Part shown: piece by piece, positions 50 to 55,224 of the stretch | How positions within the stretch are numbered: position 1 is the first letter of the stretch | Layout of the letters: each line of letters begins with the position of its first letter | NCBI GenBank assembly: GCA_050084985.1 | Contig: JBITNC010000001.1 | Span: forward strand, 63,798,001-63,862,000 | Direction: 5' to 3' | DNA: 64,000 nt | DNA from: Nageia nagi | Taxonomy: Eukaryota; Plantae; Pinophyta | Notes under the pieces: model-generated | Database searches by the model: none | Seen by the model: the letters and a program-made list of their open reading frames with translations, nothing else | What the model was told of the DNA's origin: nothing | Program-made: the position numbers and the translations under genes

Positions 50-3000
50 GTTGATATTTAAACTATTGTCCAATTACTATCATTCATTTATTTGGATATT
101 TCTTTACACTTGTCAGCGTATTATTCCAGATTTCAATACTTCTGTAAAGATAATATATGTATTTTTTTCAATGGAATCGAAAAAGGTTATTGACAGAACA
201 GTGGAATGTTTTGAATTTGTTCTTTTTGAATTCTCATTCTTTAGTATTTTACAATTTAGTGCCAAGGCTTCTTATGGATGTTACATACTTGAGTGAGAAA
301 AAACCTAATTTAAAGCAACATTGGTTTACTTAGAAAAGCATTTTAGAGTTTCATTTTATCCTTGCTGCTTCATTTCCATTTACAGAGAGCAAGATTTTCA
401 TTTCTTTCCAGTACACATCTTAATTAATTTTGGCTCTTCTTCATCTAATTATAGAAGAGGAAGCCTTCAAAAGCGTCATCTGACATTTAATTAAATAATA
501 CTTTAATAAATAAAATTTCAAAAAGACGTTCTTAAATAAAACATTAATATTCCATATTATATATGAAATTAAATCTATGATCACGAACTGTCTGTCATTC
601 TTTTATTTTTTAACCATATAATGCTTTTCAAGAAATGATCAAACACTAAATTCTTTTATCCAAGTTACCTAGATCATAAATTTCACAAGTAAAACACAGG
701 TTTAGATGGGTGTTTTTATTGTTAACGTAGGCAGTAATTGTTTTAAAGATATAAAAGTTGTTTTTGCCACGGATGAGTTGCTATAGTTTTTGTTCATTGG
801 CCAGAAGTCAGCTTAAAAGAACCTTGCATATGATGATTGTAATGTCCCTATCTTGGACGCCCCATTTTATGATAGGAATTTTAGTTTTTAATTAGATTTT
901 ATAAAATTTAAATATGGCATGAGAAAATGGACATCCCATTTAGGGGAATAATATAATTTTATTTTATAAAATTAAGTTATGATTTTAGCATGTGTTCTCT
1001 TGGATGACTTAAGTGAAGGCATAATGGAAAATTATAACATTGAGTATAAAAGGAGAAATGAGCTCATTCTCATTCGTTCTTGGATTATTATTTCTCTTCT
1101 ATATTGTGGAGTGAGCTGCTATTCTAGCTAGCTTCCCATTCTCTTTTGCAGATGAAACCCTGTAGGAGATAGAGAATCATAGGATGAAAACCCTGTGATT
1201 CTCAAGGATCTAGGGACGAAAACCTTTGGGTTCTTGGAGAACAAGGACGAAAACCCTTGCTTCCTCTTGAAGTGAATTCATACTATGCTGAATTGGAGTT
1301 TGTGTTTCTTAGGTTTTGAAGGAGAGTATTCAGATTTGAGATCTGCATTGTTGGAGACTAGATCTGCATTGTTGGAGACTATATCTGCATTATTGGAGAC
1401 TAGATCTGCATTGTTAGACACCAGGTCTGTATTGTTGGAAACCAGATTTGTATTATTGGTACAAGATCTATATTATTCAGTCTTATATAGCTATTTTGAG
1501 ATTAGTACACTTCAGATTTTGTATCAGATTGGGACGTCCAACCCTAGGGAGCATTTGGAGGGCGTTTGAAGTATTTCACGCCAGAATTCAGTCTTCACCA
1601 TTGGGACATCCAGTTTTGGTGGGGATATCTGCATAGATCAGGACCTTGAAGGCTAGACCAACATTTTTATCATCAATTATGGGCTATTACTTGGACGGCC
1701 AGAGAGTGAAGGTTTAATTTGTTGATCTGAAAGTGAATTAAAGTATTTTTGGACTTGTACATTCCAGATTTATTGCTTCTGGAGAGACGCCCAGTATATA
1801 GGAGTCCAAATCTGCAATTTAGGGGTTTCTACATCAGATTTGAGTGTTCAACATCAGATTTGTGGCTCATAGATCAGACGTCCACCACCTGGTGATTGTG
1901 ATTTGCACTTGAAGGGTTTTAAAAACAGTTCTAATACATCCTTATTGGGACGTTCATCTTTGGAATTCATTTGAGTGTGATCTGCATCAGTATTTGAGTC
2001 AGCTTGACCCAACATCCAATTTGGGAACTAGAACTGAAGAGTTAAGTGTGTTTCTTCATCATTTCATTAGTGATCTGTTGTGCCCGCACAACACACCCCA
2101 AGATGTAGCATTTTTGGGACCCAATATTTTCTTGCAAAGGCATTGAGCAGCATTACCCAGGCATGATCAGACTACGGCCAGTGTAAGTATCCTTAAGGCC
2201 TAGATGATTGAGCACCAAGGAGACATGCATTCGGACTAATGCAAAGAGTTGAACTTAGCCAGTGGCCAAGTCAGGGCCTGCTCTCAAGCAACTTCTCATA
2301 GAATGGAGTCATGGATCATGACAACAACCAGACAGTGGAGTTTCAAGCAATTGGCTAGCAAGGTGAAAAAGATGCGTTTTGACAACATTTTAGTTCAGAA
2401 GAGTCAAGTTGACCAAAAAGGAGCATTTTTGCATAGGATCAGTCCACATGCACCAAGCGCAATACAAAGGCACATTTTCGCAAAATTTGAGCATAAAAGT
2501 GCCCAGATGATAGAATGAACACTTTTTTGTCAAGTTTGAGTCCTGGTCTAGTTAATACAATTAAGATGACGAAAATGCGCGTTTTTGTACAATTTGACCC
2601 CGAAAGGGGCATTTAGAATCAAAAGGTGCGTTTTTGTCACTTTTGAGCTTGGAGAGCCAGAAAAGGGTCAGTAACACGAAAAAGCGCATTTTGGTCACTT
2701 TTGAGCTCGGAGCCGGTCAGTATAGCAAAAAAGTGCGTTTTTTCACAATTTGAGCTCGGAAAGCTCGAAAATGACCAAAATTGCCAAGTTGAGCTCAAAA
2801 TGCTTAGAAACACTGGAAATGAGCGTTTTTGCATGTTTTGAGTCCGGAAAGGCCGGAAATGTAAGTTTTGAGCTCAAAATGCCGAAAATGATCTTTTTTT
2901 ACCATTCGAGCTTGGAATTGTTTGGAAATGTCGGAAATGGTCGAAATTCATACTTAGAGCTTGAAAATGCTGAAAATGGCCGGAAATGCACCGTTTGTGC

Positions 3001-6000
3001 TTGTAAAAGATGGTAAAGACCGGAAAGGATATCCCAGGATGAGTTAGAGAGCAAGTTTGAATGCCATTGGGGAGTAAAATAAAAAATGAGCTTTTTGGCG
3101 TTCGAAAAGCTTCAAGTTGACCCCGAAAAAGTGAGTTTTTTCAAAGTGCTCGGAATGAAAATCCGAGAGGTGTGATGCCAAATGACAAATCAAGGTCACT
3201 TTGCTCTTGGAAATGTCGAAAAAATCAACTTTTGACCCCCGAAGAGTTAGGGGGGAGTTTTCCAAGTTTTCCCTCACTTAATCAAATTTCGAAAAATGGC
3301 CTATTCTCTTCAAAACCTGCACCTACCTTTTAGGAGGTCCAAATTGATCTGAAATGGCAATTTTTGAGTTCAGGAGCGTAGAGATTGCGATTCTACATCA
3401 AATTGGTCTTTCAAGTTCGCAGTTTCGACAAGTTTTGCTCAATGAAAAGTGAGAAAAACAGGAAAATGAGCAAAAGGACAGCCAATGAGAATGCTCCAAA
3501 ATTTTGAAAATTCCAAAATTGCAAAAATGTAAATCCAAAGATGAGGTAGGGTGGCAAATCAAAAATTAAGCACTTCTCCTCTTGAAATTTTCGAAATTGG
3601 GTAAATTTTGACCTTCCTAGAGCTAGGTGCTGGTTTTGGGTGTTTTCCCTCATTTTTCAAAATCTTCAAAACACCCCAAACACCTCAAAACCTGCGCCTA
3701 CCCTTCTTGTGCCCCAAGAGTGAAACAAATTGGAAATTTTGACCTTCAAGGGGTATAGGATGGGATTCCACATAAGATTGATGATTTGAGTTTTTTAAAA
3801 AAATGAGATCTACCTCCTCAAATTATCAAAATTCGATTGGCCAATGAGAGAGCTCCAAATTTTTTCTAAATTTGAAGGAGACCAATATTGCCTCTTAAAA
3901 ATTTGCAAAAAAATTAATTTTTGCCCCTCCTTTTCCTAGGCAGCAGTTTTGGCATGTTTCCCATATTTTCCAAATTCTAAAAAAACATGCCAAGACTCCT
4001 AAAACTAGTGCCTAGCCGCCAAGCCTCCTTTTTTGCTCAAAAGTCAAAAAAATTATCCTAGAAGCATAGGAAATCCAATTTTGCATCTTTTTCAAGCTTC
4101 AAGTTTTTTGAAAAACATGGATCTACTCGCCTAAAATGACAAAATTTGGATCAGCCAATGGGAGAGCTTGAAAAGTTTTCAAAATTTTCAAAAAAATTTC
4201 AAAATCGAAATTGGAAAGAAAGGTACGATGCAAAATTCCAAGGAGATCAACATTGCCTCTTGCAACTGCAAAAAAAACAAATATACCCCCTCAAAAAGCT
4301 AAGCGGCAGTTTTGGCATGTTTCCCTCATTTCTAAATTTTCCAAAAACATGCCAAGCTCCTCAAAACCAGCGCCTAGCATGCAAGCCCCCTTTTTTGCCC
4401 AAATATGAAAAATTTGATCCTAGAAGCATGGGGAATCCAATTTTGCATCTTTTTTAAGTTTCAAGTTTTTCGAAAAAAGTGGATCTAACCCCTCAAAATG
4501 ACAAAATTTGGATCAGTCAATTTGAGAGCTACAAAATTTTCCAAAATTTTTAAAAAAATCTCAAAATCAAAATTGGAAAGCAAGGTAGGGTAGCAAATCC
4601 AAATGTGACCATCTTTGCCTCTTGCAAATTTGCCAAAAAAACAAGTTATTACCCTCCAAAAGGTAGGCGCTGGTTTTGCCTTCTTTCCCATGTTTTCTCC
4701 ACTTTCCCAATGTTGGGGATGAAAAGGCTAAGTTCAAAATGCAAATTTTTTGGTCTAAAAAGCTAGGATGTTGACATATGGCACTATTTGAGCTCTCAAA
4801 GTCTATAAATACAGCCATATCCCTCCATTTTTCTCACTTCTCATTTTTGCACCTTTATGCTGCCCAAATTTTTGAGAATTTGAGAGCCAAGTGAGAAAGA
4901 AAGCCATTTTTCACCTTTGGAGCATGATTTGAACACTTAACACTTTGGCCATTCACCCAAACTCCAATGAAATTCGAAATCCAACCATCCTCCATTCACA
5001 TGAACTTCGTTTTCCAAGTTTTTAAGGATTTTCATGTCAAAACCCCATTTTTCCAAACCTAAAACACTTGAAAATTTATTTTTTCAGAATTCAAGTTTGA
5101 TCACTTTTTTGGATACCCTTTATCCTTGTGATCAACTTTTATTTTCAGAAAAAAAACCAAAAAAAATATATATGATCCAAGATCTAAGTGCTCAAAATCC
5201 TCATTTCTTTAAAAACATTTCAAAGAAATTCAATTTGTTTTTCAAAAACTACAAAAATTATTTTTGAAGTCCGTTTTGGCCATTTCAAAGTTTGAAACAC
5301 CTTCCCCATCCATCTAAGGTGTTAGAACTAGATTCAGATATCATTCACCAATTTTGCCAAATTCCACCACTTTTTCCTGTTGAAAAAGTCAACTCTTTTG
5401 AGAAAAATTGAAAATTCTGCAAATTTCCTAAAATTTTGCCAAGGCATTCTCCTTTGAATTATCTTTTTATCATACCAAACTCACCCAAAAAAGCTTTGAA
5501 AGTTGCAAATCTTGACTTTTTTTGATGATGGTACACTTGGAGAAAAAAATGCCCAAAATGCCAATTTTTGGAAAAATTCTCTTAGCTTGCGTAGAAAGTG
5601 CCACAAGCTTCCCAAGACTCCTCTAACATTGTGTTGTTCTTTTAGACAGGAACAAGATGGCATTAGTTGCTCAGAATATCAAAGATAGAAAGCAGAAAAG
5701 GCTCACGATGGATAGTCCCATCACTCTTGAACATACGTCAGAGCCCATGATGCCTACTGCAAGAATCATTGACCAACTGAGTGAGATCGGAGATACAAAT
5801 TGTAACTCCCTTGATCCAATTAAAACTTTGATGAAAATACACACATTGGATCTAGATTTGATAGTGAAGGATACTTTGAAAACTTCCTTATCACTATCAA
5901 CTTCTATGGTGCCATTTGCCACCCCCTTCTCTGAGCTGTGCTACGAGCTAGGAAAGCATTGCGACTTTCGAAACCAAAGACTTCTTGATAGAAGAAACGA

Positions 6001-9000
6001 GAAAGGGCATTCGCTTGGAAGGGCGAAGGTCAATCATACAACGTGTAAGACTCCTTGAAATTCTACAAAGGGCTGAAACCACCGGCTGATTTGATCGGAG
6101 ATTGGTTGGTTGATGATCACAAGCATCTCACAGGGAGAGCCTTAGCAACGCCAAACAGAGGAGAGTTCTATCCAGTGGTCTTCCGAATAATATCAATGCT
6201 TTCCAGAGTGTTCGGACAAAAAGATGACACCAAATTCTGGTCAGAATTCGCGGGGTTTATATATCTAATTAGTAGCGGTAAAGGCATTAGATGGAGCAAA
6301 GTGATTAGTGATTCCTTGTCTCAGCAATTGAGACATATTCAGAAGAGCAAGAAATTCTACATGAACTCCTACCTGGTTTTCCTACTCCTTCATGGTAGGG
6401 AGAGGGTAACTTCAATTGCCAATATCCAATATCTGTATAACCCTACACATCCAGTGTGGGAAAATTACCCCTGGTTCTATGCTCATAATAAATGGAACAA
6501 CGAAAACTTAATGATGATGACTAATGGTTTTGAAGGCAAAATCTATGAAGAGATCTTGGGCAGAGCTAATGTATTCAAAATATCCAATGAAGCTGCTGCC
6601 ACTATCAGGGGACACATGGACTTCTTCATGGAGGACATAGAATTCACATATCTCAGAGTCTATGGCTCCAAAGAAGGTCCATACAAGCTACCCCTTTATG
6701 CAAGTGATCATCTCATCCTTATGGAATTCTCAAGACATTTGCTTAACGTACATGACAAGGTATGGGTAAAGAAGGTGGCCGCCAGCTACCAATTACCTCT
6801 CATCATTTGGGAATTATGAATGCACCACCTGGATTTAGATCGACATGATCAAACAAGAGCTGGCCAAGTATGAGTTCCCAATTGAAGTAGCTGCGGATAA
6901 CTATGATCCTGATGGAGTGATTGATGCATTTTTCCAAAAAACATGGAACGCATCATATCCACATCAGGTCTCCTGGTAGTATTGAAAGGTACAGGAACAT
7001 TCAGGATGCTTTGCAGGTTCAACAAATTCACATGGAGCTGAAGAAAGAATAAAAACAGCAAGAAGCCGAAGAAGCTGCTAGGTTAAGAGCCAATGCACAG
7101 GTCACTGTACCCCCGAGCCAAGGGTATATTATTTCTTTAATATCACCTTCAGTAATCCTAGCTCAAGGACAGAATGGGCAGTATGCTACCAACAACATCC
7201 TTGGACAAACTATTGAAACAACTGTCATGGGTATAAAGAATGCCATCCTGGACCTTAGAAAAGCAGGCTTAATCTCTTAACTACTCAAACACTTGCTGAA
7301 AAAGATAGATCTTCCACAAGGTTTGAATTGGAGTGGTATATGCCTGAATCAAAATCCCAGAACATCATCATCTAGTTTTGGCAAGTATGGGCTGAGCAGT
7401 TCGCCAGAGTCCGATGAAGAGATGGATTTTAGTGCAGTCATCGATATCAATATGGACAGAAATCAAGATATTGTCTTCGACAGGGTTGACATTGGTCATT
7501 CAGTAGAGATTCTTGACAAAGCTAGTCTCTCAATTGATGTGACTGTATAGCAAGCAGTAGGAGCAACCACCTCAAAATCCGCTTCTCAAAAACATGCATC
7601 GCAAATGCCACCATCGCAGAGGACTACAACAACATCAGTACAGAAGGGTATATCAAGACGTAGAGCAATGGCATCATCTTTAGGGGGAGATGATGGAAAT
7701 CAAGAGGATGAGGGAGAAAATGAAGAACAAAGAAGAAAGAGAAGACAAGTAGAGCATGATAGTGAGATCATCAAATACGGAGAGATGGTTCCCTATGGAA
7801 AACAACCCATGGAACCCCGCTTTGACATGGTTGCAGTGATGGCTAATTTGAGTTCAAATCACCCCTGTGAAGGAGAAGATTCCGAAGATGAAAATGAGGA
7901 ACTTCAGCAGATTGATACTCTTACCACCATTGTAGGAAAAATCACCTACAAGGACAAGTTGTACTTAAGAAAACACAAGGCTGGTATCGGAAAGTTTGCC
8001 CTTACAGTTGAAACAAAAGAAGCCCTAGTAGAGATTGTTGGCTCATTGGGAATGGAGCACAACATCATCACCAATGCACGGGCGTTAAGGGAATCCGGTA
8101 CCTTATTAAAGTTAGAGGTCTGAGAGTTGAAGAAGATAGTGGCGAGACAAGAAATGATTGACAAAGAAATCAAGGTTGCTAATTTGATGGTTGAAGACAT
8201 CAAAAAGCAGGTCGACTTAAACACTGGAATCACCGCTTTGAAACAAAGATGGACCAAGAACCTTATTGAGGCCATCAAAGCACTCCAGTCAAGTATGGTA
8301 AATCTTTATATTGAAGAGGAGGGGTCGCATTCTCAAGCAGAGAAAATAGACCAGTTAATTATCAGATGGAAGAGTGGGTACCCCACAATGTTTGACCTAC
8401 AGAGAAGGGCAACCCATCACCTATTCGTGCTCGATTTTTGCATTGATTGGTTCCAATTGTATGATTACCTATTTTACATCAAAGCAAAATCCACTTACTT
8501 CATATACACAAAAACTCAATTCAAAGCCATCATCAGTGAATAGGAAAGGGAATACGAATTCTAGGTACACTTGTTTGAAGAAAACGGTAGCATCAAGGAG
8601 TATATGACAGTGATGGCAATGATCCATGCCACTATTGCAGAACAATTGTGCCCCGAGGACCCACATAGCCTGAAGACAGGAAAACAAATGACAGGAGGGA
8701 TGAGATTGGCCGATTGGTGCAAGGAAATGGTCAAAAGCAATAAGGCCATCCTGGAGCACTTGTTATCAAACGAAGGAGCCCTCTAGACAATCCACCGTGC
8801 CATCAGGAATGTAGAAGCGTTCATGGGAGATGATTTTGAAGCCAAAATTGCTACAAACGTGCAAGTCATCTTTCCACAATCGCTAGAATAGAAAGGGGTC
8901 TATTTTGGCAAGTTTTTAATATGTAAGCCAAATATTGGCTAACTTAGTGGATTTCCACTAAGTTTTATTGTAATCTTAATTAGCAATTTCAATTAGCTTG

Positions 9001-12000
9001 TAAATAGTTTTACTATTGCAATTAGAGATTAGGGTTTCAATAGTGACTTTTAGGGTTTCCTAAAGTCTATAAATAAGAGATCAAGGGTCTCATTTCATTC
9101 AATGACTTCATTTTGAAGCAAAACACTTCAAGCTTGAAGAGAGAACTTTGTAAGAGAGTAGCAAATTGATGTATCCTTGCACAACTCTTTTTCAAATTAA
9201 TACAAAGTGGTTAAAGCAAAGATTTGAGTTTGAAACTTTTCATATTGGTGTTATTGATTGAGTCTTTGAGAGCACTCATAGTGGATTTGTGTACTTTCGT
9301 TTTATTCCTTTGAAAGCTCATGAGCTTTAGGGAAGTTATCTCTGAAAAACTTTAAAAAGTGCTTGAAGTCTACCTATGCTTGTTGCTTGATCCTTAACAT
9401 GCAAGTTGATTGGCTATTCTATGTCATATTTCTACTTTCATGACATCATGTTAGGTCCTTCATCCAAAACCATGATCCTTTCATTTTGAGATTTTCCATC
9501 ACCATCCATTTGACGTTCCTCCCCGCTCCTCTTTGAAGCATTTCGAATGTTGAGTTGTTTGCTTGCAATGTTGGATGAATTGGATGAAAAGTCCTTAATT
9601 GATTCGGAAGAGATCAACTTTTAGACACTTTCCCGTTATTGAACCTCGAACTCATAATCCAACCAAGTATCCATTTGTTTCTCCAAGGTGTTGTCCTTCA
9701 TCTTTTACCATTTTTTCTTTTATGCTTTATTTATACTTTCAAGCCCAAATACAATCATTAAGTCCACACACAAAAGTTCTGAACAAACTCTATACATCAA
9801 AGAATAAAACATCGTTGGTTAACAAACTACATACCTCTCATTCCATTCTATTGAGGCTGATTCCAAAGAGGGATACCGCACTTTCTTTCTATATATATCC
9901 CTATTCAGAAAACACACTTGACAAACAAGCATTACGCCATGACGTTGGAGTTGTTGGGCAAGGTGTTTCAACAAGAGCCTTGGAGTTACACAATCCTTTT
10001 CAACCGGGGGAATTGGTAACACATTCCCAACTATGTTGTTTGAGATCTCCTAAGTTTCTCCCGCGATATTCAGAGTGTCCCGCACGGGAAAGAAAAGTAT
10101 CCTAACATGATCTGCATTAGGTGTGAATTAGACTGGTTTATTTTAATTGCTGCCATTGTATTTTAGTGTGATTTATCAGACATTGCAATAAATATATCAG
10201 ATTTGCAATTCTTTTGTTGTGGATGTTTTGAGTTGTGTGATTTTCTAGTTAGAATTTGTGAAAACTTACAATTACAAATCAAGAAAGTTTTGGTTTTGAG
10301 CACAAAAATTTGCAGCTAGGATTTGCATTTTCAGTTTGGGGATATTTTATGTAACTGAATCCTCCTTTATAAGAGATTTTTACCTTTACTCATCTGCCAT
10401 CTGAAATGATCATTCAGCTCTTTTTGTTGGAGTATATCGAATTGGGTTCTAGAATGCAGTTTGCCTGCCTTCTGTGCTATTGGTCTTTCACTCCATAATT
10501 AGTATTTGAGCTGAGTTTGGAAATTTGGAATTCACTAAATTCACTAAATGTCATCAAATTTGGAAATTTTGATTTCAATATTTTGGCTTCTTTCTATACC
10601 ATGCTAAGATAAGTAAAACATATTTGTATTGATCTTATAATTGAAAGTTACTGTAAATTATTCCAATGAAGAAACTCTTTTATTTGGCATAAAATGGTCA
10701 GGTTTACATCTTGGTCTATTTAAAATGCGAAAACCATTTCCAATATCTCCGAGATGGGTTTAAAATTATGGCATTTCTTTGGACGTATTAATTTGAAGAT
10801 ACAAAAAAATAAGGTTCTGTTAGATCACAGTTTTGTTAAGAAGTTTAGGAGGCATCTATATGAATCCTTTCATTGGATATTTTTTAAGTTGAATTAAAAT
10901 AGTAAATACTCAATTTGATGTACAGTTTTTGAATTATACTTCAGGAAAGTGTTGCTGCAACCTTTGGAAATGGGGTATCTTCTGCATGCGTAGTGAATAT
11001 TGGTGCTCAAGTTATATCCATTTTGTGTACCGAGGCAAGTTCAACTATTGTTTATTAGATTTTGCTTTTCTTGAAACAGGCTATGCATGATGTTTAGTTT
11101 GCTGACTCAATAATAAAGGATAGAACAAACATTGTACATCCCTTATCAAGAAAATCCAATTCTGTTGGACTCTTCAAAATGAGGGATCAAAAATTTTAAA
11201 TGTATTGCTTTTGCCTATTTCCATGTTTGCTCACGATGCATGTGTATGTTTTCCTTGTAATTGTATTCCTGTTAATATTCAGGATGGAGTTGCAATGCCA
11301 ACAACAAGGGTTACACTCCCATTTGGTGGAGAGGTAGGACTACTTTTTTAAGTGATCATCATTGTAAGTAATAGAAAATCTGTTCTATTAACAAATTTCC
11401 TACAGACGATCTTGAATTCTTTTCAGATATGCTGGAAATTCTCTATTGATGAGTATTTGGTGTTGGATTTATCTTTACATTGTAACTTTTATAATTCTCA
11501 GACCATTATATCTTTGGTGTGCACACACGTATGCTGATTTGAACTTTACATAGACTGTTGCATACTCTAAAGCTTTTTTTAGGTTTTTTATTTTTTAATT
11601 GTACATAACTTTGATGGGATTAAAAAGGATCTACATCTTTGTGAAGAAACTATTGCATTTCCATGTACATATCTTCCTTAATAGGCCACACATGTCTTCG
11701 TTCATCATAACTCTGAACTTGACACCTCTATTATGGTTTATAAGTATCCTAAAGTGGACATTATCTTAGTGTGAACCGTGAATAGCTTTTGAGAACTCTG
11801 CATTTTAGTATCAATACTTATTATGTGCTTAGGCACCACATATACTGGTAGTTGCATTGTCAAAATTTGAACATCTGGTGATTCCATGGTGCAACTGAAG
11901 TTGTTATAAATAGAGGATAAAATTAGTTTACCCACCAGAACCTGATGTTCTGTTCTTTAGGGTATATGGACAAGGTAACACTTACGATACCTATGATGTT

Positions 12001-15000
12001 ATACAAGGTAGATGTGTGTGTCCTATATGTAATGTCCCCATTTTTAGCATTTCGCTCATTTTTGCATTGTAATGTATTTATTGGGCCACATGGAGTGGAA
12101 CGCCCCTCTCTCGAAGTTATTAGGAGTGATTTTTAGTAGTTAGGAGTGATTCTTGATATTTTTAGATAATAATGGAACTTTATTTATATTTGAATGTAAT
12201 AATGTACTTGGAGATCTGAAATTTGTAATCCTAAGAAAGAGTTAGAAGTCTCTAGGTGGGACGCCCAACTATAGGAGTATTTTATTACATTAATAGCGGT
12301 TATGAAATGATATTGAGGTTCCTTGGTTTCAGCGCTGATTTTTGGGATCTCAATGAGGAATTAGAAGCACAAGAGGGGATGTCCAACTCTAAAGAGGAGC
12401 CTCCCATTTTGAGGACATCTTTGGCTTCCATCATCTCAGTCACTTTTTGTGGACGAAAACCCATAGGAGAGAGATCTAGAGGATGGAAACGCTCTAAGAT
12501 CTAAGGGCTTAAGGATGAAAACCCTTGAGTTCTTCGGTGGTGGATCCAGTTGGGGTTCACACTTGCATTCCATCTTCATTCTAGAGCTTAGATCTGGGGG
12601 GTTGAGGGCCTAGAGTGAGATGCCCAGCTTGGGGAGGAGATATTTCAGCCTTTCATCCATTCTTCTCCCCTAGACTCAGATGTGCAATAGTTTGAACTGT
12701 TTAGAGTGTTGTTTGAGCATCATTTGTCCTCTCTGGGGGTGAACATGAGGGTGCTCTCCTCTCTGAGGAGGGATCTCTTTGGTCAATAAGGTGCGTGCCT
12801 ATAGAGTTGCTATTTTGGGAAAGAAGAATGTGATCTGTCAAGTCCTCAACGGAGCTTGGGGATCCTAAAGGTGCCTTTTGGTACAATGTTTGGGGAATAA
12901 AGAATCATCTCGCCATCTCCTATGAACTCCTCTAGTTGGAGAAGCTCGAAAAAAGGAAGTGATGCGGCGATCACATGTCGGGTGTGTTGAGTGCGAGCAA
13001 GAGATGCTTCCATATAAGGAAGGTCTCTTGGAGATGAAAAGCTAGACAACGAGCCATGTGCATCTCGAAAGAGAAAGTAATATCGACCTTGGATCTCATA
13101 GTAGGTTGAGCACTGGAAAATGAAGTGGTCCTCAAACTCTATCTCAAGTGAGCAAAGGCGACAAGCACGTAAATCACGGGCTAGATGATACTCTATCTTG
13201 ATCCTCAATTGATGTGGTCAAACTCAAAACTATCCTAAGAATGTCCTCAAATTAGGAGGAAGATGTAAACTGAAATATCCTGGTGGGAGGATCAAACCAT
13301 TGTCGAGTTGTAGATACCGTTGTGCATAATGTACCAACTTTGGGGACAGTGGCTGAGGGGATGAGACCCATGTGATTTATATATAGACCTTGTAGATGGT
13401 ATCTTGGACCTTTGATAATGAGTTTGTTGGAGAACTGATTGAACTCTCCTGTGGTGCAGGACGAATATCCAAAGAGAAACCAAATCTCTGGAGTATCTCA
13501 CTAACCTTAGCAAACTAACATCTATGGCAACCTTGTGCGGCTAGATCCATTGAAGAAGCCAAAGCCCTTGAAGAGAGTCTCCTTGTGTTGCCTTGATGAC
13601 AAGAAAGGTGATGCAAGCGATGGAGAAAGAGGACTATGGAAGTGAGGGCTCACACCTGAAGAGGTTGGCATCCGAACTCTGCCAACATGATAAGGTGGGG
13701 TACCATCCTCTTGCTCTGAATGGAGCAGAGAAATTTGGCACTTGCTTGTGAAGAGGATTCTAGCATAAAAGGTAAAAATTACTAGCAATAACTATATTAT
13801 AAATCCATGTAGAAAATATTGTGGAAATGTGAGATCAAACATAGCAATAATCGTAAACTATGACAATGGGAGACTAACATTTGTAGAGGCAACCTCTCAA
13901 AATATGTAAACTCAATATAAAATATGTCTTTCATTTGCCCTAAGAGCTTGCATTCTTTGCCTTTTCTAAGTGTGATTCAAATTAGCATATTCTTCTTGCA
14001 TATGTTATGTGTTCCCTATATTCCCTTACATATTATTCCTTACATGCAATTTTTCTTTAGATCTATATTCCCTTACAATAATATGTGATATGTATCCACT
14101 CTCATACATTATGAATGATTTGTGCTCACTTGTATTTTACCTTCCAAATTTACATAGATTGAATACATAACACATTTCAAATCTCCATGGTTGTCACAAG
14201 TAAGCAATAGTTTGCCTCAAAACTCTTTTGCTTCTCCTTCTCCTTGGCCTCATTATTATCATTAGACAAGGTCTTTCAATCCTTTGGAGGAAAGTAATGA
14301 TTTCCCACAAGTTTTCATAAGCCTTGGGACCTCAATAGAATTTGCATATTGATTCTCCAATAATCATAGTCTTCATCATGTAACTTAGGAAGAGGAATAT
14401 TTTGCACTTCAATGGAGTCTTGTATTGCTCTCAAATTAGTAAAAACAATCATGATACATACACATAGCAACACCACACACCAAAAAATGAAAAAAGAATT
14501 TACAATATATTACATTTTGGGTACGTCCCTTAAATTTTCTATGCTAGTTGGATTCTCATGAAGTCTTCAGTAACTCCCACATGTCTCTTGGCTTGCTTGA
14601 AGTTGGGAAGACATTGACTTTTTATTTTATTTCATTGTCTATCTTTTGAATAAGAAATAAACATGTCAATTTTTTCATGAAGTGATAAACACCTCATGGT
14701 TTAGTTTTTTGCAAGATTTATTTTATAGCATTTATTTGTTTTGTCCACTTGAGGGAAAAACCCATGTATGGACCATTTCTTGCAAATAGAGGGTCCAATT
14801 TGTTGTTATGTTTTTCTCTTTTCATCCAAAACATGCACAAGACTTGGAGAAAACAACGTTACTTGTTGTCGCCTGAAAGGATTGGTTACCCCAAGCGCTC
14901 CCATGGAATATGGACTAGGGCACAATGGATAGAGATGCATGTTGGTAATTGTATATGAGGGAAATACACTGTCGAAATTCGTTTCACAAAGAGAAAAGAT

Positions 15001-18000
15001 TGCAAAGGTGAATGAAAGTGAAGAAAGATCACAAATGCAAGGATAAATGCATAGGAATATGAATAATGAACTTATGAAGGTATCACCAGTGATGCAATGT
15101 CTCGACAGGTCATCTTTGGATTCTTTAAGAAAATGTATCCACTTATCAAGTTGGGCATCAAATAGCAATAGGCTCAAGTTACTACCAAACGAGAGCAGGA
15201 AGCTGTAGGGTCTGTGATGGAAGAATCAATGGAATGGGATGAAGGGAAATGACCAACATGTGAATACATAAATTCTAACTGAATGACATAGAGATAAGCT
15301 ATACGCCACAGAATACATCCACTTGCATACAAATCATACAATGAACAATTTAAACCGCTTCGAAAGATATTCAGCTATCTTCCCTTAAAACTTGTAGGTT
15401 TCAAAGAGAATGCACTTAAGCAGTAAAAATTACTCGAATCGGCAAGAAAATCTTACAGGATAATATGCATGATCCCACAAATGATAATCTTCATAGCATT
15501 TACTTTACAAAACCATTCCAAAAAGAAATAAACTCACAATGACATTCAATAGCACGAACAGAAGCATTTCTTTCTTGATTGCAAAGCTCTCAATATGATA
15601 TTCAACATGAAACATAGATATGACAATCTGCAACCTTGATATGCATAGAATCCCTTATGTAGCAAATCCTTATGCAAACCATGTGCAAAAATCCTCAGTT
15701 TCAGCAGATGCAACAATCTTATGCAATCAATATTATGCAAAAATCCCCTTCTAAATGGCCCGAGTAAAATATAAATAGCCCACTAGAAGTGCTGCCCTAA
15801 AGGCATCAAATCTGATATGGTGTGCTCACATGCAACACACATACCAATGCAAAAACTATCTTTTACAAAAAACTATGCAAGTGGTATTTAAAAAGCTGAC
15901 AAAATATAAATGCCAAAACTGTAATGTATTTAATCTACCTCTAATCTATGCAAACGAGAAATCAGATATGCACTAAATGTTTGACATCTGAATTGGAGGA
16001 GCAAAACTTCATCCTTGTACCAGTCAGATCCATAAATGAGTTTGACATATTTAATTTAGAGGGAGCAAAACTTCATCCCTACACTAGTCAAATCAAGTAA
16101 ATGAAGTCTAAATACAACAACCACCACCATCAATATGCATTAAACATAGAAAAGATAATCGCAGATAGAATCTACGAGTGGATCAAATCTAGGCTAGATC
16201 TGATCCGGTACCGGCGGAGTTCCACTCTGTGGTGAGACTGTATAACTCAATGGGCTCTTCTAAGAAAACATGACCTTCTGTACTCCCTTGGAAACCATAC
16301 CAACAATGCTACCATTCTGCCTGAAGTAGTCTCCAATCTGCCTAGATGTAGCCTGCATCTGAAATCTCCAGATGACCATCTGCCTCTCATGATGAATGGG
16401 TTGCCTTGCCTTTAGTAGGTTGAGATCCTTGAACTCAAGATGTTCCTGGATTAGATTTTGAGCCTCTGCCAACACCTCTTCCTTCCTACGCATGCTGTTA
16501 TCTTTCCCTTGAAACGTTAGCTAGTTTACATATTTGCTCATTTGTTCTTCTAACTTCTTTCTCAAAGGTATCTTGACTTTCAAAACAACATTACACTTCT
16601 CCACTGCATGCTTCAGCTAGTCGTGCTAATACAAGAATTCATGGCAATAGACTAATTTCTTCGGTCTGTTAGCAAAGATCTGCTACAAATGGGTGACGGT
16701 AGGGAGATGACCATCCAACTTCTCGAGGAGGGCTATTATTTGGAACTTCAACTCCCGGATCTCAACACCTTCCTCCAGGAGGCTATATACTTGAGAAGAT
16801 AACTTCTCAATAGTCTCCATCATCTTCAATTGGTCCTTCATCAATTCCCATCTTGCATGGAACAAGACTTGCTTTTTCAATTCTATAGGGGTGGTGCTAA
16901 CAATTTGGAACTCCTTAATGATTTTCTTGCTAGCTGCGAGTTCCTTCTTGAGTCTTTTCACCACCTTCTTGGCTTCATAGCCTTCTTGTTCCATGATAGC
17001 AAAATTCTGAGTAACAATCTGCTTCTTGGTTGTTAGACCTAACTTAACATGCATCTTGAATGTTTCTATCATACAGTCCTCGGGTCTTTGCGGATGTTTC
17101 TCCTTGGATTAACAATGGTTGATGGAGATCTCCTTTCTTGAAGTAGAAACAAAAGTATCTAAGTGAGCTGTGTTCATGCTCACTTTCTCACCATTGGAGA
17201 CCTCCTCTTTTTCATTTTTAGACCTCAAGTTCTGATCAATTTCTTCATCGTGAGCTGTGTTCATGCTTAAGGCTCTTAGGCAAGCATCTAAGTCAAGATT
17301 TGGGTGTTTGATTGCTGGCTTGGGAGGGAGCCTCTGCACAACACTCGACCTTTATTGATCTTCTCGACTTCCTTTGTGAGAGTGGCTTGAACAAGGGCAA
17401 CTTGCTTACCCTGATGCTCATCCTGCTTTCTCTTCTTCTTTTGTTCTTCGGTCTTTCCTTCATATTCTTCATCTCCACCATCACCACCTAATGATATAAC
17501 TTTCTTGCATGGTTGAGGTGATCTTTCATGGCCGGTCCTCTTCAAAGAGGGCTTCTGGGAAGACGAGGGTGACCTCTTTCCATGTTCGGTAGGATAGAGT
17601 TTGGAAGAACCCACCTCTTTGGCATATTTCACTCCAACTATATGGACTTCTTCATCATAAATCCCAATGTCTATGAACAGGTCATCATCATTGTCCAGGA
17701 GAGTTTCAATTTTCGTATCATAAGTGCGGAAGAACCTACAGCTACATTCTCTTGACAGGGGTACTCTTCATCAACAACATCATTTGCATCATCATCATCT
17801 TCTCCTTCTTTCTCTTCACCATAAATCTCTTCATTGTTTTCTTGACTCTTTGTCTCTTCTTTTGAGCCTTCTTCAGTGCAGCCAGGTTTTTCATCACTTT
17901 CTTCATTAGAAGAAGTGGAGTGTTCGGAAGAACTGGAACTTGGTTGTAATGGGGGAACTTGCTCTCTACATCTAGAAGGACAAGTGGGTCTTGGTGGAGT

Positions 18001-21000
18001 TTTTTCAACAGGGGAATCATTGGCATAGGCTTCCTCCAGTATGCTTAAGGGGATATCATAGTAACCAGTGTCTCTAAGATCAGCCACCACCTGCTGGCTT
18101 TTCTTTGCTACATTAGCCACCACACTGTGTTTACTGGATCCTATTGAGGCATGCTTTTTTGATGCTCCTTATCTTGTGAGCAAAATGTAACTCAAAGCAA
18201 AATCAGCAAATTCGATTACAATAACCTTGATGTCAAGCCTAGGGCATCATCTACAAGTATATACCATACAAAACTGCCAATGTCTAAGCTGGGGTTACAT
18301 GATCAAGCATTTACAACATCCATACACCAACATTTAGCATATCACAGTGGATATCACTTTACAATGCCAATGTCTGGCTCATGCATGCACAAATAAGCAA
18401 TGGTAACCCAATGAATGCACAAGAGTAATGAAGACAATACAAATATGCGATCCAATGCCCTTTTGGCTATACGAAAGATATAGAACGATGATGAATACAA
18501 TACTAGGCCTAAAAGGGCTAACGTTGGCCTCTTAGGAGCCAACTAAGGCAATATAATGTATCTCTCACCATTGGAATAATATCAGAACCCTGGGATAGTA
18601 TTCCTCCTTTGAATAAGAATCCTCTCCATCGAAGGAGTCCTCATCAAACTTTGGATAACCACCCAAGGTAGAAGCAATACCTCGGAATACCACCGGATGG
18701 GCAAAGGTGCTACACTAGTGCCGCAGACAGACAGGATCCTTTAGCCTGAATGCCCTCTAAACGCTGCGCCTATGAAGGTTGCTTAGCACCGCTAAGACTT
18801 GCTGTCCTCTGGATGATATGACAGTAATAATGATCAAGTATATCCAGTAATGAGGCTCCAATGTCTATTTATACATTTTCTTTGTTCGGATCTCACCTAG
18901 GAGTCATCACCTGTCGCCTCTAATCCAACGTTGGCCTCCTGGAGGCTCGAAATACCCAACGTAGGTGTCTAAAGGTAGACATGCCAATGTGGGGGCCGGG
19001 GGTGCATTAAGTGCCAACGTGTGAGCCTAGGAGTGCCACGCCTGCCCATGTGGGTCAAGGGGGAAAACATGGGGTCTAGGTGTCATGCTGGGCCAATATG
19101 GGGGTATGGGAGCCTTCCCAAGCCTAGTACAAGCATATAAGTGGCTGGCCATCACCTCAATGTACAATAGACCTTGGGATTCCCACAATCATGTTTCGGG
19201 ATCTCTAACTATGACAAATACACCTAATCTAACCTTAAGAGAGAGACATCCCACTTGGGGCTCACAGTGGGGTCTATTGACCCATTAAATCTCCTATCCT
19301 AAGTTACAAACATGAAAGTGTAATGCATAAATAAAGTATATTACAAGAGAAACCTATTGGTTCCCATGATTAATTTCGACCATGCAAGGGGGATGTCACA
19401 TGTCTTTTTCCCTATGGGAAGCAAGGATGTCTTGACTTATGGAGGTGCAACGCTTGCAGAAGGAGGCGACGTTTTGATCCTCAACAAGACCTCTTTAGGT
19501 CTTGCTTTTACAGTTCTAGGTCTTTGAGGTGCCTTCTCTACTTGAAGGGGAGCCTTATTTATGCTCAAAAGAGCATCTATCTTCGCTATCTCCTCATCTC
19601 ACACATTTCTGAACTTTTCTGCATTCCCTAAAGATTTGTGCTTGTAAACAACAGGTTTCTGGAATGCGGTGTTGAAGAAATGGGCGATAACACCTTTAGG
19701 ATCATAGTTTCTAGCTACTATCTCCTTGAAGAAGACATACTGCTGCAGCTCCTTCATGCTATTAGCCTCATCCTAGGTTTGGCAAACATAACTTGCAATT
19801 GAGATGGGCAAGTTAATGGTTGTGTCCTTCTGTCTCCACACTCGTTCCTTCAAAAATAGTAACTGTTTGGAAAATTCCATGAGAATCATTCTGTCATTGG
19901 CATATCTAGGTAGGATTAGGGGTTGCTCTTCAGAGCCATAGACCTTGATGTAAGTATGATCAGCATACTGCAGGTAGAAGTCTACGTGTACACTAATGGC
20001 TTGAACAAAAGCATTAGAGATCCTCTTCATTACTGACTTACCTTTGATTTCCTTATAAATGGCATATTCCCACTCGTCATTTCTCTCATAGAAATGCTTG
20101 AATTTGTTATGGTACCACCACTTTAGATGAATTTGCCACACTGGGATGCCTTTCTTTTCTAGATATCCTTCATCTTCAAGCTCCTTTGACCTGAACTTGC
20201 CATGCAACAACAGGTACACAAGATAAGAGTTCATGTAGAACCTTCTGGAAGAGCCAAAGTAGGCTAGCTGGTGGCGCAAGGCATCATTGATTACCCTGCT
20301 CCATCGGATAGCTCTCCCTGAGTTGATCATGGCGATAAATCCAATGAACTATTTCCAATACTTGGAGTCATTTTCCTGACCTATGACTCTGGACAACAAA
20401 GTGATCATCTTAGTGATCGTGGAAAGGAACTCTTCCCTACGAGCACTCATCAATCTCTAGCCTTTGATACCCTGGTAGTCTTCACATAACCATCTTCTAA
20501 TATAATCTCCAGGTCGGGCAATGGAGTCATGGAATTCTTTCGAATGGGCCAGTGTATGATCATCTCCATATCTTCTCCAGCCAAAAGTGGCTTCAATCCC
20601 TTCTGGAGAGAAATCCATGATCATGTTCCCTTCAGTGTCCAAGAGAACTCTCTTGTCATACTTGCAACGTTTGGAAACTTCATAACACAACTCATGAAAT
20701 GAAACAACATAAGGCATCATAGTGGCATTGAATAGCCCACAAGAATGGATGATTTCATTCGACAGATCCTTCTTGCTGATGGAGGCAGTGGATGCTATGG
20801 TCTGGATGAGGTCAACATTTCCCCAATCTGATTCACCAATGAAGATGAATCTCCCCTTAAACTTGGCTTCAGGGAGCACTGGTTTTTCTCTTTCTTGGAA
20901 CCCTATTTGACTTTCCCTCAAGAATCTCTCTATCTGGTCATCTGTGACATGTCTTTCAAAATGTTGCCCATGAATCTTCCTGGCCTTGGTTGGGGAGGCC

Positions 21001-24000
21001 TCACCTTAGAAGTCATCTTCAAATATGAAAAATGTGTAGAAAACTAGAAAAAAAGTTGGAATTCTAGTTGGAAATGCCCTAAGAATGGTCAAGCACCAAA
21101 TTGGATGTGTGTAGAACCAGACGTGCTGGTTTAGGCTGCAAAATGTCCTGCAGAAATGAGCTGGGACTGCCCTCTTATAGAAGCTGCATGGAGGGTTTAT
21201 GCATGGCACATTGTATGTATGCCACCTGTCTTCTTAATCTTTTGACTCTTAGCTTCTTCAATACCTAGTCAATCTCAGCTCATAGTCCCCAAGGCGCATG
21301 GATTTGGGTACGTGCTTTTTCACTGCTTGAAAAACATGCAAAAGGTCTCTTGATGGGCAAACACATCACTTAGTCAAATCTAGGGCAACAATATTCCATT
21401 TGAAAGGCCATATCATCACTTCATGCTAGGGCGCACGGATTTAGGCATGTGCTTTTTCATGTCTTGCAAAGCATGTGCCTCAAATTTCATGCATAAACAA
21501 AAGGAGAATGGATTGCACATGATAGTGTATACTTAGCCAAATTCCTGGATTTGGACCTAGGCACACCGTTTTGAATGAGTCCTTCAAGCACTAGTGAGAA
21601 AATATGCGCATAGGTCAATTTAGGGCAAGCCTTATCAGATAAATGTAAGTGAATTACAAAAAACAGATCTTGAGATCCAACTCACCCCCTTAAAGAAATG
21701 GCTATTGGTAGTTCAGACGCCTCCTCAAACCTTTATTTCTCCTAGGTGCACCAATTTAGATGAGTCCTTAAGCATGTCCCGGAAATAGTGCGAATGGGAG
21801 ACTTAGTCCAAAATGAAATGAAGTTTAAAATGATACAAGGGATGACTTCATATGTATAACCTTCAAGTGTCCCAAGTGTCACCTTTTGGTTGGTTCCAAA
21901 TGATGTCAAATAATGGAGCCAGGATGTGCACGTTTTAGAGTACATGTAAAAGCATGTCCCAAAATGCATGGGCCAACCAACTTTAGTGCATCAAAAGGAC
22001 TTAGTCAATTTCATCATCCTTGAAAACCCTTGCAACTTGGTTGCACCCTTTTGGAGGGGTGCAAAAAGCATGTCCCAAAATCCTTGCGCCTACCAAAGTA
22101 GACACCTTAAAAAATACTTAACTCAAAAATGCTCCAGAATTTTGGGCGCACCTTTTTAGAAGAGTGAAAAAGCATGTACCAAAAAACATGCAGCTAGGCC
22201 TCTTTTACAGAATTTTATACTTAGTCAAAAAAATGCGTCTGGGCCAGGACGTCTAGAAGCTGGCGCACCAATTTGAGTGAGTGCCTAAGCATGTCCCAAA
22301 ATCCTTGCGCCTACCAAAGTAGACACCTTAAAAAATACTTAAAAATGCTCCAGAATTTTGGGCGCACCTTTTTAGAAGAGTGAAAAAGCATGTACCAAAA
22401 AACATGCAGCTAGGCCTCTTTTACAGAATTTTATACTTAGTCAAAAAAATGCGTCTGGGCCAGGACGTATAGAAGCTGGTGCACCAATTTGAGTGAGTGC
22501 CTAAGCATGCTCCAAAAACCATGCGCATAGTCCTGTGGCACACTCTTGAATGCAATGAATTAATAATTAATGAAAATGACCTTAAAAATCATCGTCCAAA
22601 ATAGGGTGCACCATTTGAGGGATGTGCGTTTCTGGACTTAGCGCAACACAATGCTCCGAAATCAACCAAACAAATTGAATGCTAAAGCTAACTTTCCTTT
22701 TATAGACTTGCTCAAGTGGATAGGTGTCATGCAACAATTGGTGTGAGTGAAGGTCCAATGCGTGTGAACACACTTGTCCTTTCTTATTGAACGTCCAGAA
22801 TCCTATACTTTAGCCAAAATTTCCCACATGAAGGAGGGCGCATCGATTTGGGTACTTGCAAAAGCATGTTCCCGAAACCATGCGCTCAACCAATTCAACC
22901 ATTTTTTCTTCAAAATTGGCTAAGTGTTGAAAGTACTCCATCTGCCAAGGCGCACTGATCTGGGTACGTGCAAAAAGCATGCCCCTCAAAGCATGCGTTG
23001 ATGCTGTTTTGACATTTTCCTCTAGAATTTGCTAAGTGTCAAGTTACCTCATTCGCCAGGGTGCATTGTTTTTGCAACATGCAAAAGCTTGTCCCTCAAA
23101 GCATGCGCTTAGGCATAGAACATGCTGATTTACTTCAAAATGACTAGAATGACCCTCAATAATGGGATGCAGTGGAGGGGATGCAATTCACAAAATGACT
23201 AAGTGAAAATGGGCATGAATGATGCAGTTTAAACCCGAAAATGGGTCCTTAAAAATTGCAAATTTTTGGAGGGTGTTGTGTAGGCACAACACAATTGATG
23301 GAGGTTATTGATTGTCCATCTTTGAGGTGTCTCATATGTTTGAAAAGAGCATTGTCCATGGTATGATGTGATATGTGCCATTGTGAGGACCTCTTATGCA
23401 TTTTTATCAGTAGAAGTGTGAAGAATAATTTTGTTTGGATCTAGATAGCTATGGAGAGATTGTTGTTGTGGGACTTGGTTGTGATATTTTCTTGATGTCT
23501 TGAATCTCCTCATTGTTTGGTTTTGAATAGTCTAGGATTATTTGAGATGTGTTAGAAACCTAATCCTTAGTGATTAAAGTTATTTTTATTGTATTAGTTT
23601 TAGAAGTCATAGTTGTGATATTATATTTAAAGTATATGCATTTTTAGGTTTAACTATTGATGTAATTCCAAGAGTCATATGAAGTTGAATATGGAGAGTT
23701 TTTAGGGAGTCTAAGAGTTACCTTGTGCTTGGGTCTTTGCTTCAAATTCCAAACACTTGCGCTTGGGTCTTTGCTTCAAATTCCAAACACTTAGCCAATT
23801 TCAACCCCAGGCCAAAATGCCTAGGACTAGGCACATGACTTGAGAGGTGTGCTTTTCATGCACAGGAAATGATGCGACTAGGGTCTGGCACACCTCCTCA
23901 GACAAGAAATTTCAATAATGACTAAAAAATGCAAACCTGACATAGGTTGCACGTTTTGGAGAACGTGCTTTTTCTCCTTTGACTCCATGCAATGCTCCAA

Positions 24001-54873: not shown

Positions 54874-55224
54874 GTAAGTATTCCATCTTATAATTATACA
54901 AGTATAGTAATTCAACAACTGCATTACAAATTACTTTGGCATATCCTCTTTTCCTGTTGTGTTGTGGGACTGTTTTTGACTTCAAAAATACAAGGCTTCT
55001 ATTGTGAGATCATGAAAACATAAAGACTGTCATATTGCTTGGTTTCTCTTTCTCTTTCCCTGTCATGCACAAAAACCTTTCATAGAAATGATAATGAATT
55101 TTTTGATTCTTAATCAGTCAAAAACTTGTGGATGAAAGGAGGAACCCATCTTTTGATCCAGCTCACATTTCTATCTATCTCCACTAATATTCTTGTTTTG
55201 ACAATATAGCTTATGATTCCATCA

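What the first reader, a model, noticed from the sequence alone, without database searches (positions are those of the whole stretch)
2076..10107. Giant solo LTR carrying its own ~1,070-codon gene (a gene inside the LTR)
Seen: an 8,032-bp unit with TG..CA ends and a perfect TGATC TSD. It has no second LTR, PBS, PPT or gag/pol, and both ends match the 2.5-kb 5' LTR of the TatII element at 55572. Its layout is repeat arrays, TATA (4803), long sense ORF (5657-8890), second TATA (9067), then the conserved 3' end. Known: plant Tat/Ogre/Athila elements carry extra ORFs between their LTRs; genes inside U3 are better known from retroviruses (MMTV sag, nef overlap). Inference: these elements carry a self-promoted accessory gene in U3. 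It would be present twice per element and would survive as an expression cassette after solo-LTR formation. I do not know of a description of this arrangement in plants.
Basis: partly seen in the sequence, partly recalled or inferred. Interest (0 to 1): 0.9.

Follow-up and report, generated by a model that had tools for sequence, protein, structure and literature searches.

The report
Giant plant LTR carrying a gene
This 8-kb stretch is likely the left-behind end repeat (solo LTR) of a plant retrotransposon and holds a broken 1,078-codon gene; in distant relatives that gene sits inside the end repeats themselves, a layout that common limits on LTR length would partly hide.

Summary
The unit is real: 2076-10107, TG..CA ends, perfect TGATC duplication, no second LTR, PBS or gag/pol. 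Its "ORF" is a pseudogene (9 premature stops, at least 3 frameshifts), and it matches the LTR at 55572 only at the tips. The window holds a second such unit (23291-14801, TSD AATTG, 41% identical protein core). No genome was held, so I used 80 metagenome loci with distant homologs (23-37% protein identity). They give 9 whole LTR-start/ORF/LTR-end units of 4.7-6.9 kb in 8 distinct contigs: 5' LTRs before PBS and gag, 3' LTRs after internal sequence, and solo LTRs with TSDs. Two contigs show both LTRs of one element. None shows the usual ORF-then-short-LTR layout. Intact copies (1,027-1,111 aa) have dN/dS 0.13. Own promoter, U3 position and function are untested; weak leads point to a PMD/DUF1985-like nuclear protein. 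Also seen: a reversed PBS-like word, not a purine tract, precedes the 3' LTRs. Ten literature searches found no description.

The parts
2071..2075 (+). left target-site duplication TGATC
2076..10107 (+). unit A: giant solo LTR, 8,032 bp, TG..CA
   Evidence: family cover in public runs
2076..2125 (+). conserved LTR 5' tip with 18-bp palindrome; shared with units B-F and with LTR starts in L033, L062, L015, L004
3154..4710 (+). degenerate repeat arrays (362-bp unit at 3875-4644), partly homologous to the arrays of ORF-less unit C
4803..4811 (+). TATA-like box 1, candidate promoter of the ORF (untested)
5625..5649 (+). splice-acceptor-like pyrimidine tract and CAG 8 bases before the ATG (untested); similar sites before the ATG in L033, L028, L005, L007
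   Evidence: sequence
5657..8891 (+). broken accessory ORF, 1,078 codons: conserved N-terminal domain (about 5700-7000), acidic/low-complexity linker, helical C-terminal part; 9 premature stops, at least 3 frameshifts
9067..9075 (+). TATA-like box 2, aligned with the single main TATA of ORF-less unit C; likely the element's main promoter
9076..10107 (+). inferred R-U5 region ending in the conserved ...AACA
10108..10112 (+). right target-site duplication TGATC
14801..23291 (-). unit B: second giant solo LTR (TSD AATTG) with a homologous broken ORF starting at 21016, split by a nested 1.2-kb solo LTR at 19400-18175
32215..35051 (-). unit C: ORF-less, about 2.8-kb LTR of the same type, closest DNA relative of A; 3' end and TSD not clean
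42597..51847 (+). unit D: solo LTR of the same end type (TSD GATTC) with two TATA-like boxes, a short unrelated-looking broken ORF at 50213 and a nested full-length element at 43147-49085
55572..58088 (+). unit E: 2,517-bp ORF-less 5' LTR followed by PBS (58094), gag (58165) and PROT-aRH-RT-RH-INT

Best explanation
The unit is likely a solo LTR left by recombination between the two 8-kb LTRs of a gypsy retrotransposon whose LTR carried a now broken 1,078-codon accessory gene, likely in U3 and likely transcribed from its own upstream TATA box. Shown: ends, TSD, decay of the gene, and the gene's place inside 4.7-6.9-kb LTRs in several homologous families, where it is in both LTRs and under purifying selection. 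Inferred: the long LTR arose when a promoter-plus-ORF module entered U3 between the repeat arrays and the main promoter, so reverse transcription copies it to both ends; the main transcript starts at the second TATA. Weakly inferred (about 35%): the protein is a nuclear PMD/DUF1985-like factor that acts on the element's own LTR, for example against silencing. Old solo copies are dead weight, not maintained cassettes.
For: TSD and TG..CA ends without internal PBS, PPT or second LTR. Second independent unit B with TSD and homologous ORF, 41% identity over the core, DNA similarity limited to one 83-bp patch plus the tips. Contigs of 4 runs (at most 3 samples, 3 organism labels) cover all 28 bins inside A and almost nothing in the right flank; one contig bridges leader and ATG. 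In 80 loci: 9 whole start-ORF-end units in 8 distinct contigs, 0 with an LTR start between ORF end and LTR end. L062: host flank, 4,989-bp LTR with ORF, PBS, gag. L050, L028, L023, L015: INT, then LTR start, then ORF. L002: 6,948-bp solo LTR, TSD AGAAG. L012 and L063 show both LTRs; the ORF's C-terminal part is in both LTRs of L012, with third-position excess 0.40 and 0.37 against 0.26-0.30, flat in the control tail. dN/dS 0.13 for L033/L028. A TATA-like box lies 807-1,041 bp from the LTR end in A, B, C, D, E and L033 (6 of 10 LTRs scanned). REXdb lists sense extra ORFs both 5' (23%) and 3' (26%) of the polyprotein in TatII (PMC6317226, Additional file 5).
Against: No full-length element of A's own family was seen; relatives are distant (intact ones 23-26% identity to A's core, E 1e-7 to 1e-10; no DNA match). 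45 of 80 loci showed no LTR end and are uninformative; the 80 are the best of 122 confirmed. L033 joins both junctions around one LTR, so it is probably a collapsed assembly, and intact ORFs occur only in such contigs; several contigs hold fold-back duplications. No TATA-like box was found near the end in 4 of 10 LTRs (L062, L051, L004, L002). The shared TATA 14-mer is only marginal (19 of 500). No transcript data. Pfam: 0 of 60 domain sequences hit PMD, DUF1985, Transposase_32 or ATHILA; Atlas scores are below 0.9.
Confidence: 0.82

Rival explanations
1. The ORF is in the LTR but has no promoter of its own: it is read from the 3' LTR copy as a spliced subgenomic RNA, like env-like ORFs.
For: Acceptor-like sites just before the ATG in A, L033, L028, L005, L007; splicing to a 3' sense ORF is reported for Bagy2 (PMC7264820).
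Against: TATA-like boxes lie upstream of the ORF in A, B and L033; a leader intron would explain the acceptor equally well; no transmembrane stretch in 4 intact proteins (KD19 maximum 1.16-1.54).
Confidence: 0.3
2. The genomic RNA starts at TATA 1, so the ORF lies in a very long R/U5 and is the first ORF of the genomic RNA, like Ogre's 5' ORF.
For: TATA 1 has the same 14-mer context as TATA 2; 5' sense ORFs are known in Ogre and TatII.
Against: A's TATA 2 region aligns with the main TATA region of ORF-less unit C (62% over 704 bp) and keeps the 0.8-1.05 kb distance to the LTR end; starting at TATA 1 would need a 5.3-kb strong-stop DNA (inference).
Confidence: 0.12
3. A is a deletion derivative of an ordinary element (short LTRs, ORF between pol and 3' LTR).
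For: That layout is the common one in Athila/Tat; ORF-less LTRs of the same end type exist (C, E).
Against: Needs two deletions, repeated in B; no LTR start or purine tract after the ORF; 0 of 35 informative loci show that layout; the whole 8 kb is repetitive in public runs.
Confidence: 0.04
4. The ORF belongs to another element nested in a short solo LTR.
For: Nesting is frequent here (B, D, L063, L018).
Against: The same order recurs in A, B and 9 units elsewhere; no internal PBS or pol.
Confidence: 0.02

Closest known systems
TatII and other OTA (Ogre/Tat/Athila) gypsy elements with extra ORFs (PMC6317226; PMC4408406; PMC7264820)
   Same: Long LTRs with tandem arrays, 5-bp TSD, a large sense extra ORF; neighbour E has the TatII order PROT-aRH-RT-RH-INT and the same PBS word as L033, L062, L012.
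   Different: Published extra ORFs are placed in the internal region or simply up/downstream of the polyprotein; here the ORF is inside the LTR and doubled. No purine tract before the 3' LTR in the relatives.
Retroviral genes in U3: MMTV sag, HIV nef overlap (recalled, no call)
   Same: Protein-coding gene within the LTR, copied to both ends by reverse transcription.
   Different: No homology tested or expected; plant element without env; ORF about three times longer than sag as recalled.
Maize Grande gene23 and Retand antisense ORFs (PMC7264820)
   Same: Accessory gene with its own promoter and nuclear product.
   Different: Antisense, single copy, between pol and 3' LTR.
PMD / DUF1985 (VANC) / Transposase_32 / ATHILA ORF1 domains (bioRxiv 10.1101/2024.09.27.615353)
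   Same: Nearest named clusters by language-model features; N-terminal domain plus C-terminal helical part as in Tat extra ORFs.
   Different: No Pfam hit, no PDB match; Atlas scores 0.81-0.86 with 113-130 shared features are leads only.

Membership tests
solo LTR | TG..CA ends with a 4-6 bp target-site duplication | tested here: met
solo LTR | no second LTR, PBS, PPT or gag-pol inside | tested here: met
solo LTR | the same sequence flanks an internal region in full-length elements | tested here: inconclusive
   met for homologous families; not seen for A's own family, no genome held
TatII (REXdb) | aRH between PROT and RT | tested here: inconclusive
   met for neighbour E (RVT_3 before RVT_1); A has no pol; not found in the held part of L015; region absent from L033
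TatII (REXdb) | PBS type (tRNA-Asp/Asn dominant) | tested here: inconclusive
   E, L033, L062, L012 share one PBS word that I recall as tRNA-Arg type; L005 has one I recall as tRNA-Asp type; no tRNA set to test
TatII (REXdb) | RT-RH-INT phylogeny within the TatII clade | not tested
   REXdb reference sequences could not be read
TatII (REXdb) | gymnosperm host | not testable with these tools
   host unnamed; gymnosperm inferred from E's domain order
canonical LTR retrotransposon | polypurine tract before the 3' LTR | tested here: not met
   0 of 9 3' LTR junctions in relatives are purine-rich (fraction 0.36-0.48 in 25 nt); not testable in A
gene-in-U3 (MMTV sag type) | ORF wholly inside the LTR and present in both LTRs | tested here: met
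   relatives:
gene-in-U3 (MMTV sag type) | ORF upstream of the genomic RNA start, with own transcript | not testable with these tools
   only TATA position and homology
PMD / DUF1985 / Transposase_32 | Pfam profile match | tested here: not met
   0 of 60;
PMD / DUF1985 / Transposase_32 | shared fold | tested here: inconclusive
   Atlas leads below 0.9; model pLDDT 74.6; no library of predicted plant structures on hand
env-like ORF | transmembrane helix | tested here: not met
   KD19 maximum 1.16-1.54 in 4 intact proteins; simple hydropathy only

The most novel reading that the evidence does not exclude
Gymnosperm gypsy elements turned the LTR into a self-contained cassette: a doubled U3 gene encodes a VANC/PMD-like factor that binds the family's own U3 repeat arrays and keeps the LTR active, and these elements prime the plus strand with a tRNA at a reversed PBS instead of a polypurine tract.
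Probability: 0.15. Interest if true: 0.95.

Novelty: new variant of a known kind. Interest (0 to 1): 0.78.

Why it matters
Extra ORFs of plant retrotransposons are a long-standing open question, and all layouts described in the papers read place them outside the LTR. A conserved 1,000-1,100-aa gene inside 5-8-kb LTRs, in several families and at least two hosts, would be a plant parallel to retroviral U3 genes. The missing purine tract points to an untested way of priming second-strand synthesis.

Tried and rejected
No own genome held. Homolog search limited to longer proteins: none. Viral contig scans: none. Pfam on A, B and homologs: no consistent family. PDB by sequence: 0; Foldseek: none at E 0.001; VIA-align best Z 4.7, uninformative. 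Second model too poor to use (pLDDT 40.5). Sequencing runs: no RNA holder listed; X5 is only guessed RNA, so no claim on expression; contig depth was not used to rank parts. Loose ends at A's termini were not among the rows shown, so what flanks A-family ends in other copies stays open. Promoter 1 versus promoter 2 regions: only the 14-mer aligns, so no ancient LTR duplication could be shown. L079 as an antisense internal copy: rejected, its pol belongs to an opposite-strand element. No tRNA gene in the window. Earlier scan findings: none. The one paper hit for 'gene within the LTR' concerns a host gene inside an element (PMC1560396).
Full report
1. Observation. Unit A runs from 2076 to 10107 (8,032 bp), begins TGTTGTG, ends CCTAACA and is flanked by TGATC on both sides. 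Self-BLAST shows internal repeat arrays (3154-4710) but no repeat joining the two ends. There is no PBS in place, no gag/pol and no purine run of 12 or more between the ORF end and the last 25 bases. CTATAAATA stands at 4803 and 9067. The ORF (ATG 5657, stop 8889-8891, 1,078 codons) is broken: 9 premature stops along the reading path, frameshifts near 5998 and 6808 shown by homologs changing frame and one near 6975 read from the frames. Similarity to the LTR at 55572 is confined to the tips (35 of 50 and 17 of 30 bases; 1 and 2 of 2000 random stretches reach those scores).

2. The window. Five more units share the tips. B (23291-14801, minus strand, TSD AATTG) carries a homologous broken ORF, 41% identical over the core and weakly similar in the C-terminal part (21% over 270 aa); a nested solo LTR splits it, and homolog P0037 aligns across the insertion. 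C (from 35051, about 2.8 kb, no ORF) aligns with A's tip, arrays and the region from TATA 2 on (62% over 704 bp). D (42597-51847, TSD GATTC) has a short different ORF. E (55572-58088) is an ORF-less 5' LTR followed by PBS, gag and PROT-aRH-RT-RH-INT, the TatII order of PMC6317226 (passages), a gymnosperm lineage. F (from 24675) looks truncated. So long and short LTRs of one end type coexist, and A equals C plus a TATA-leader-ORF module (inference).

3. Is A a family? No genome is held. Seven of 19 listed runs hold part of A. In the 4 runs laid (at most 3 samples, 3 organism labels), contigs cover all 28 bins inside A, and the right flank is almost uncovered; one contig bridges leader and ATG. 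A is therefore a repeated unit along its whole length. What flanks A-type ends in other copies was not shown and stays open.

4. Homologs. phmmer found 91 relatives of the 256-aa core at E 0.001, including an intact 1,010-aa protein of like layout. A scan of metagenome contigs with a subfamily alignment gave 122 confirmed matches of 185; the best 80 were kept. They are distant from A (23-37% protein identity; no DNA match); their host was not determined. Probes for LTR starts and ends found a terminus in 35 of 80 loci; 45 are uninformative. Nine whole start-ORF-end units lie in 8 distinct contigs: solo LTRs L002 (6,948 bp, TSD AGAAG) and the nested unit of L063 (4,654 bp, TSD with one mismatch); 5' LTRs followed by PBS in L062 (4,989 bp, then gag), L039 and L063; 3' LTRs in L004, L051 and L012; and L033, where INT, 1.1 kb, a 5,320-bp LTR with arrays and an intact 1,111-aa ORF, PBS and the gag start follow in one contig, probably a collapsed assembly. 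L050, of L062's family (70% over 2.8 kb from the exact LTR start), has INT before its LTR. L012, L043 and L063 hold both LTRs around a 3-kb internal region without detected pol; in L012 the ORF's C-terminal part is in both LTRs, with third-position excess in both and none in the control tail. No locus has an LTR start between ORF end and LTR end; the one downstream start (L018) cuts the ORF in the middle and looks nested. Two loci show a terminus only on the other strand, and L053 disagrees in orientation with its duplicate L054; several contigs carry fold-back duplications, so single contigs deserve caution.

5. Selection and protein. Intact ORFs of 1,027-1,111 aa occur in L005, L007, L026-28 and L033. 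dN/dS is 0.13 for L033/L028 (0.10 N-terminal domain, 0.14 C-terminal part; INT control 0.06); L005/L007 is saturated at silent sites. Collapsed assembly may have removed copy-specific damage. No transmembrane stretch; basic clusters suggest nuclear import (prediction). Pfam, PDB sequence and fold searches gave nothing. The Atlas names Transposase_32 and ATHILA for A's core and DUF1985 and PMD for L033's domain, all below 0.9. PMD-C resembles the DUF1985 domain of the anti-silencing protein VANC (bioRxiv 10.1101/2024.09.27.615353, passages). A role on the element's own LTR is thus a guess of about 35%.

6. Mechanism. Reverse transcription makes both LTRs from one U3-R-U5, so an ORF between LTR start and end is doubled, and LTR-LTR recombination leaves one TSD-flanked copy (established knowledge). 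U3 is favoured because TATA 2 aligns with C's main TATA and a TATA-like box lies 807-1,041 bp from the end in 6 of 10 LTRs scanned. An own promoter is untested; acceptor-like sites before the ATG fit either a leader intron or splicing from the genomic RNA. All 4 TSD-flanked solo copies with the ORF are broken, which speaks against maintained cassettes.

7. Unexpected. None of 9 junctions before 3' LTRs is purine-rich; they end in a word like TCGCCA plus 1-2 bases, the reverse complement of a PBS start, in three families (L063 adds a tenth). tRNA priming of the plus strand is one reading; only about six bases are conserved. PMC3762812 (passages) reports a PBS next to the 3' LTR for PtPiedmont and PtConagree, with LTRs of about 1 kb; whether that is the same feature or an orientation effect I cannot tell.

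8. Literature. PMC6317226 (passages; Additional files 4 and 5 read whole): extra ORFs classed only as up- or downstream of the polyprotein; TatII has 23% 5' and 26% 3' sense ORFs among 27 elements, as a doubled LTR gene would give (inference); LTRs capped at 6 kb. Additional files 1 and 3 could not be read and may bear on this. PMC7264820 (main text), PMC4408406 (passages) and PMC11728184 (passages) place extra ORFs in the internal region or 5'/3' of gag-pol. PMC13477047 (passages) used 100-3000 bp LTRs for LTRharvest. Searches found no description of an ORF inside plant LTRs; subscription journals, Repbase notes and Steinbauerova 2011 (seen only as a citation) were not covered. MMTV sag and nef are recalled.

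9. Verdict. Real feature; structural reading about 0.88 for A, full best explanation 0.82; new variant of a known kind; interest 0.78.

Noticed in passing
L033:2360-2391, L004:1460-1485, L015:5840-5864, L012:5285-5308, L051, L043, L050, L063: No polypurine tract before the 3' LTR; a reversed PBS-like word abuts the LTR start in three families.
   Followed up: partly
window 14801-23291 (-): Second giant ORF-bearing solo LTR (TSD AATTG) with a nested 1.2-kb solo LTR.
   Followed up: yes
window 42597-51847 (+): Solo LTR with two TATA-like boxes and a short broken ORF at 50213 (no Pfam hit), suggesting other cargo in the same LTR slot.
   Followed up: partly
window 43147-49085 (+): Nested full-length gypsy element with 1.1-1.5-kb LTRs and 30-bp arrays; related solo LTRs at about 18175-19400, 25450-26650 and 36400-37500.
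   Followed up: no
L012:2316-5307, L043:1643-4701, L063:385-3326: Two-LTR elements with a 3-kb internal region lacking detected pol: likely non-autonomous elements that keep the LTR gene.
   Followed up: partly
L079:4604-5515 (-): A different 303-aa sense ORF 0.6 kb after INT with weak similarity to the LTR-gene profile (E 1.5e-4 single-sequence, HH probability 3.6%); PMD-like motifs by recall; position relative to its LTR unresolved.
   Followed up: partly
window 2076-2093 and tips of B, D, F: The LTR begins with an 18-bp palindrome.
   Followed up: no
window about 10945-10975, 53700-53790, 54825-54880: Short exon-like stretches with AG/GT borders suggest that the elements lie in long introns of a host gene; not tested.
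   Followed up: no
window 23550-25450: Short repeats at 23550-23592 and 25403-25445 frame a possible copia-like remnant holding truncated unit F (from 24675, minus strand).
   Followed up: no
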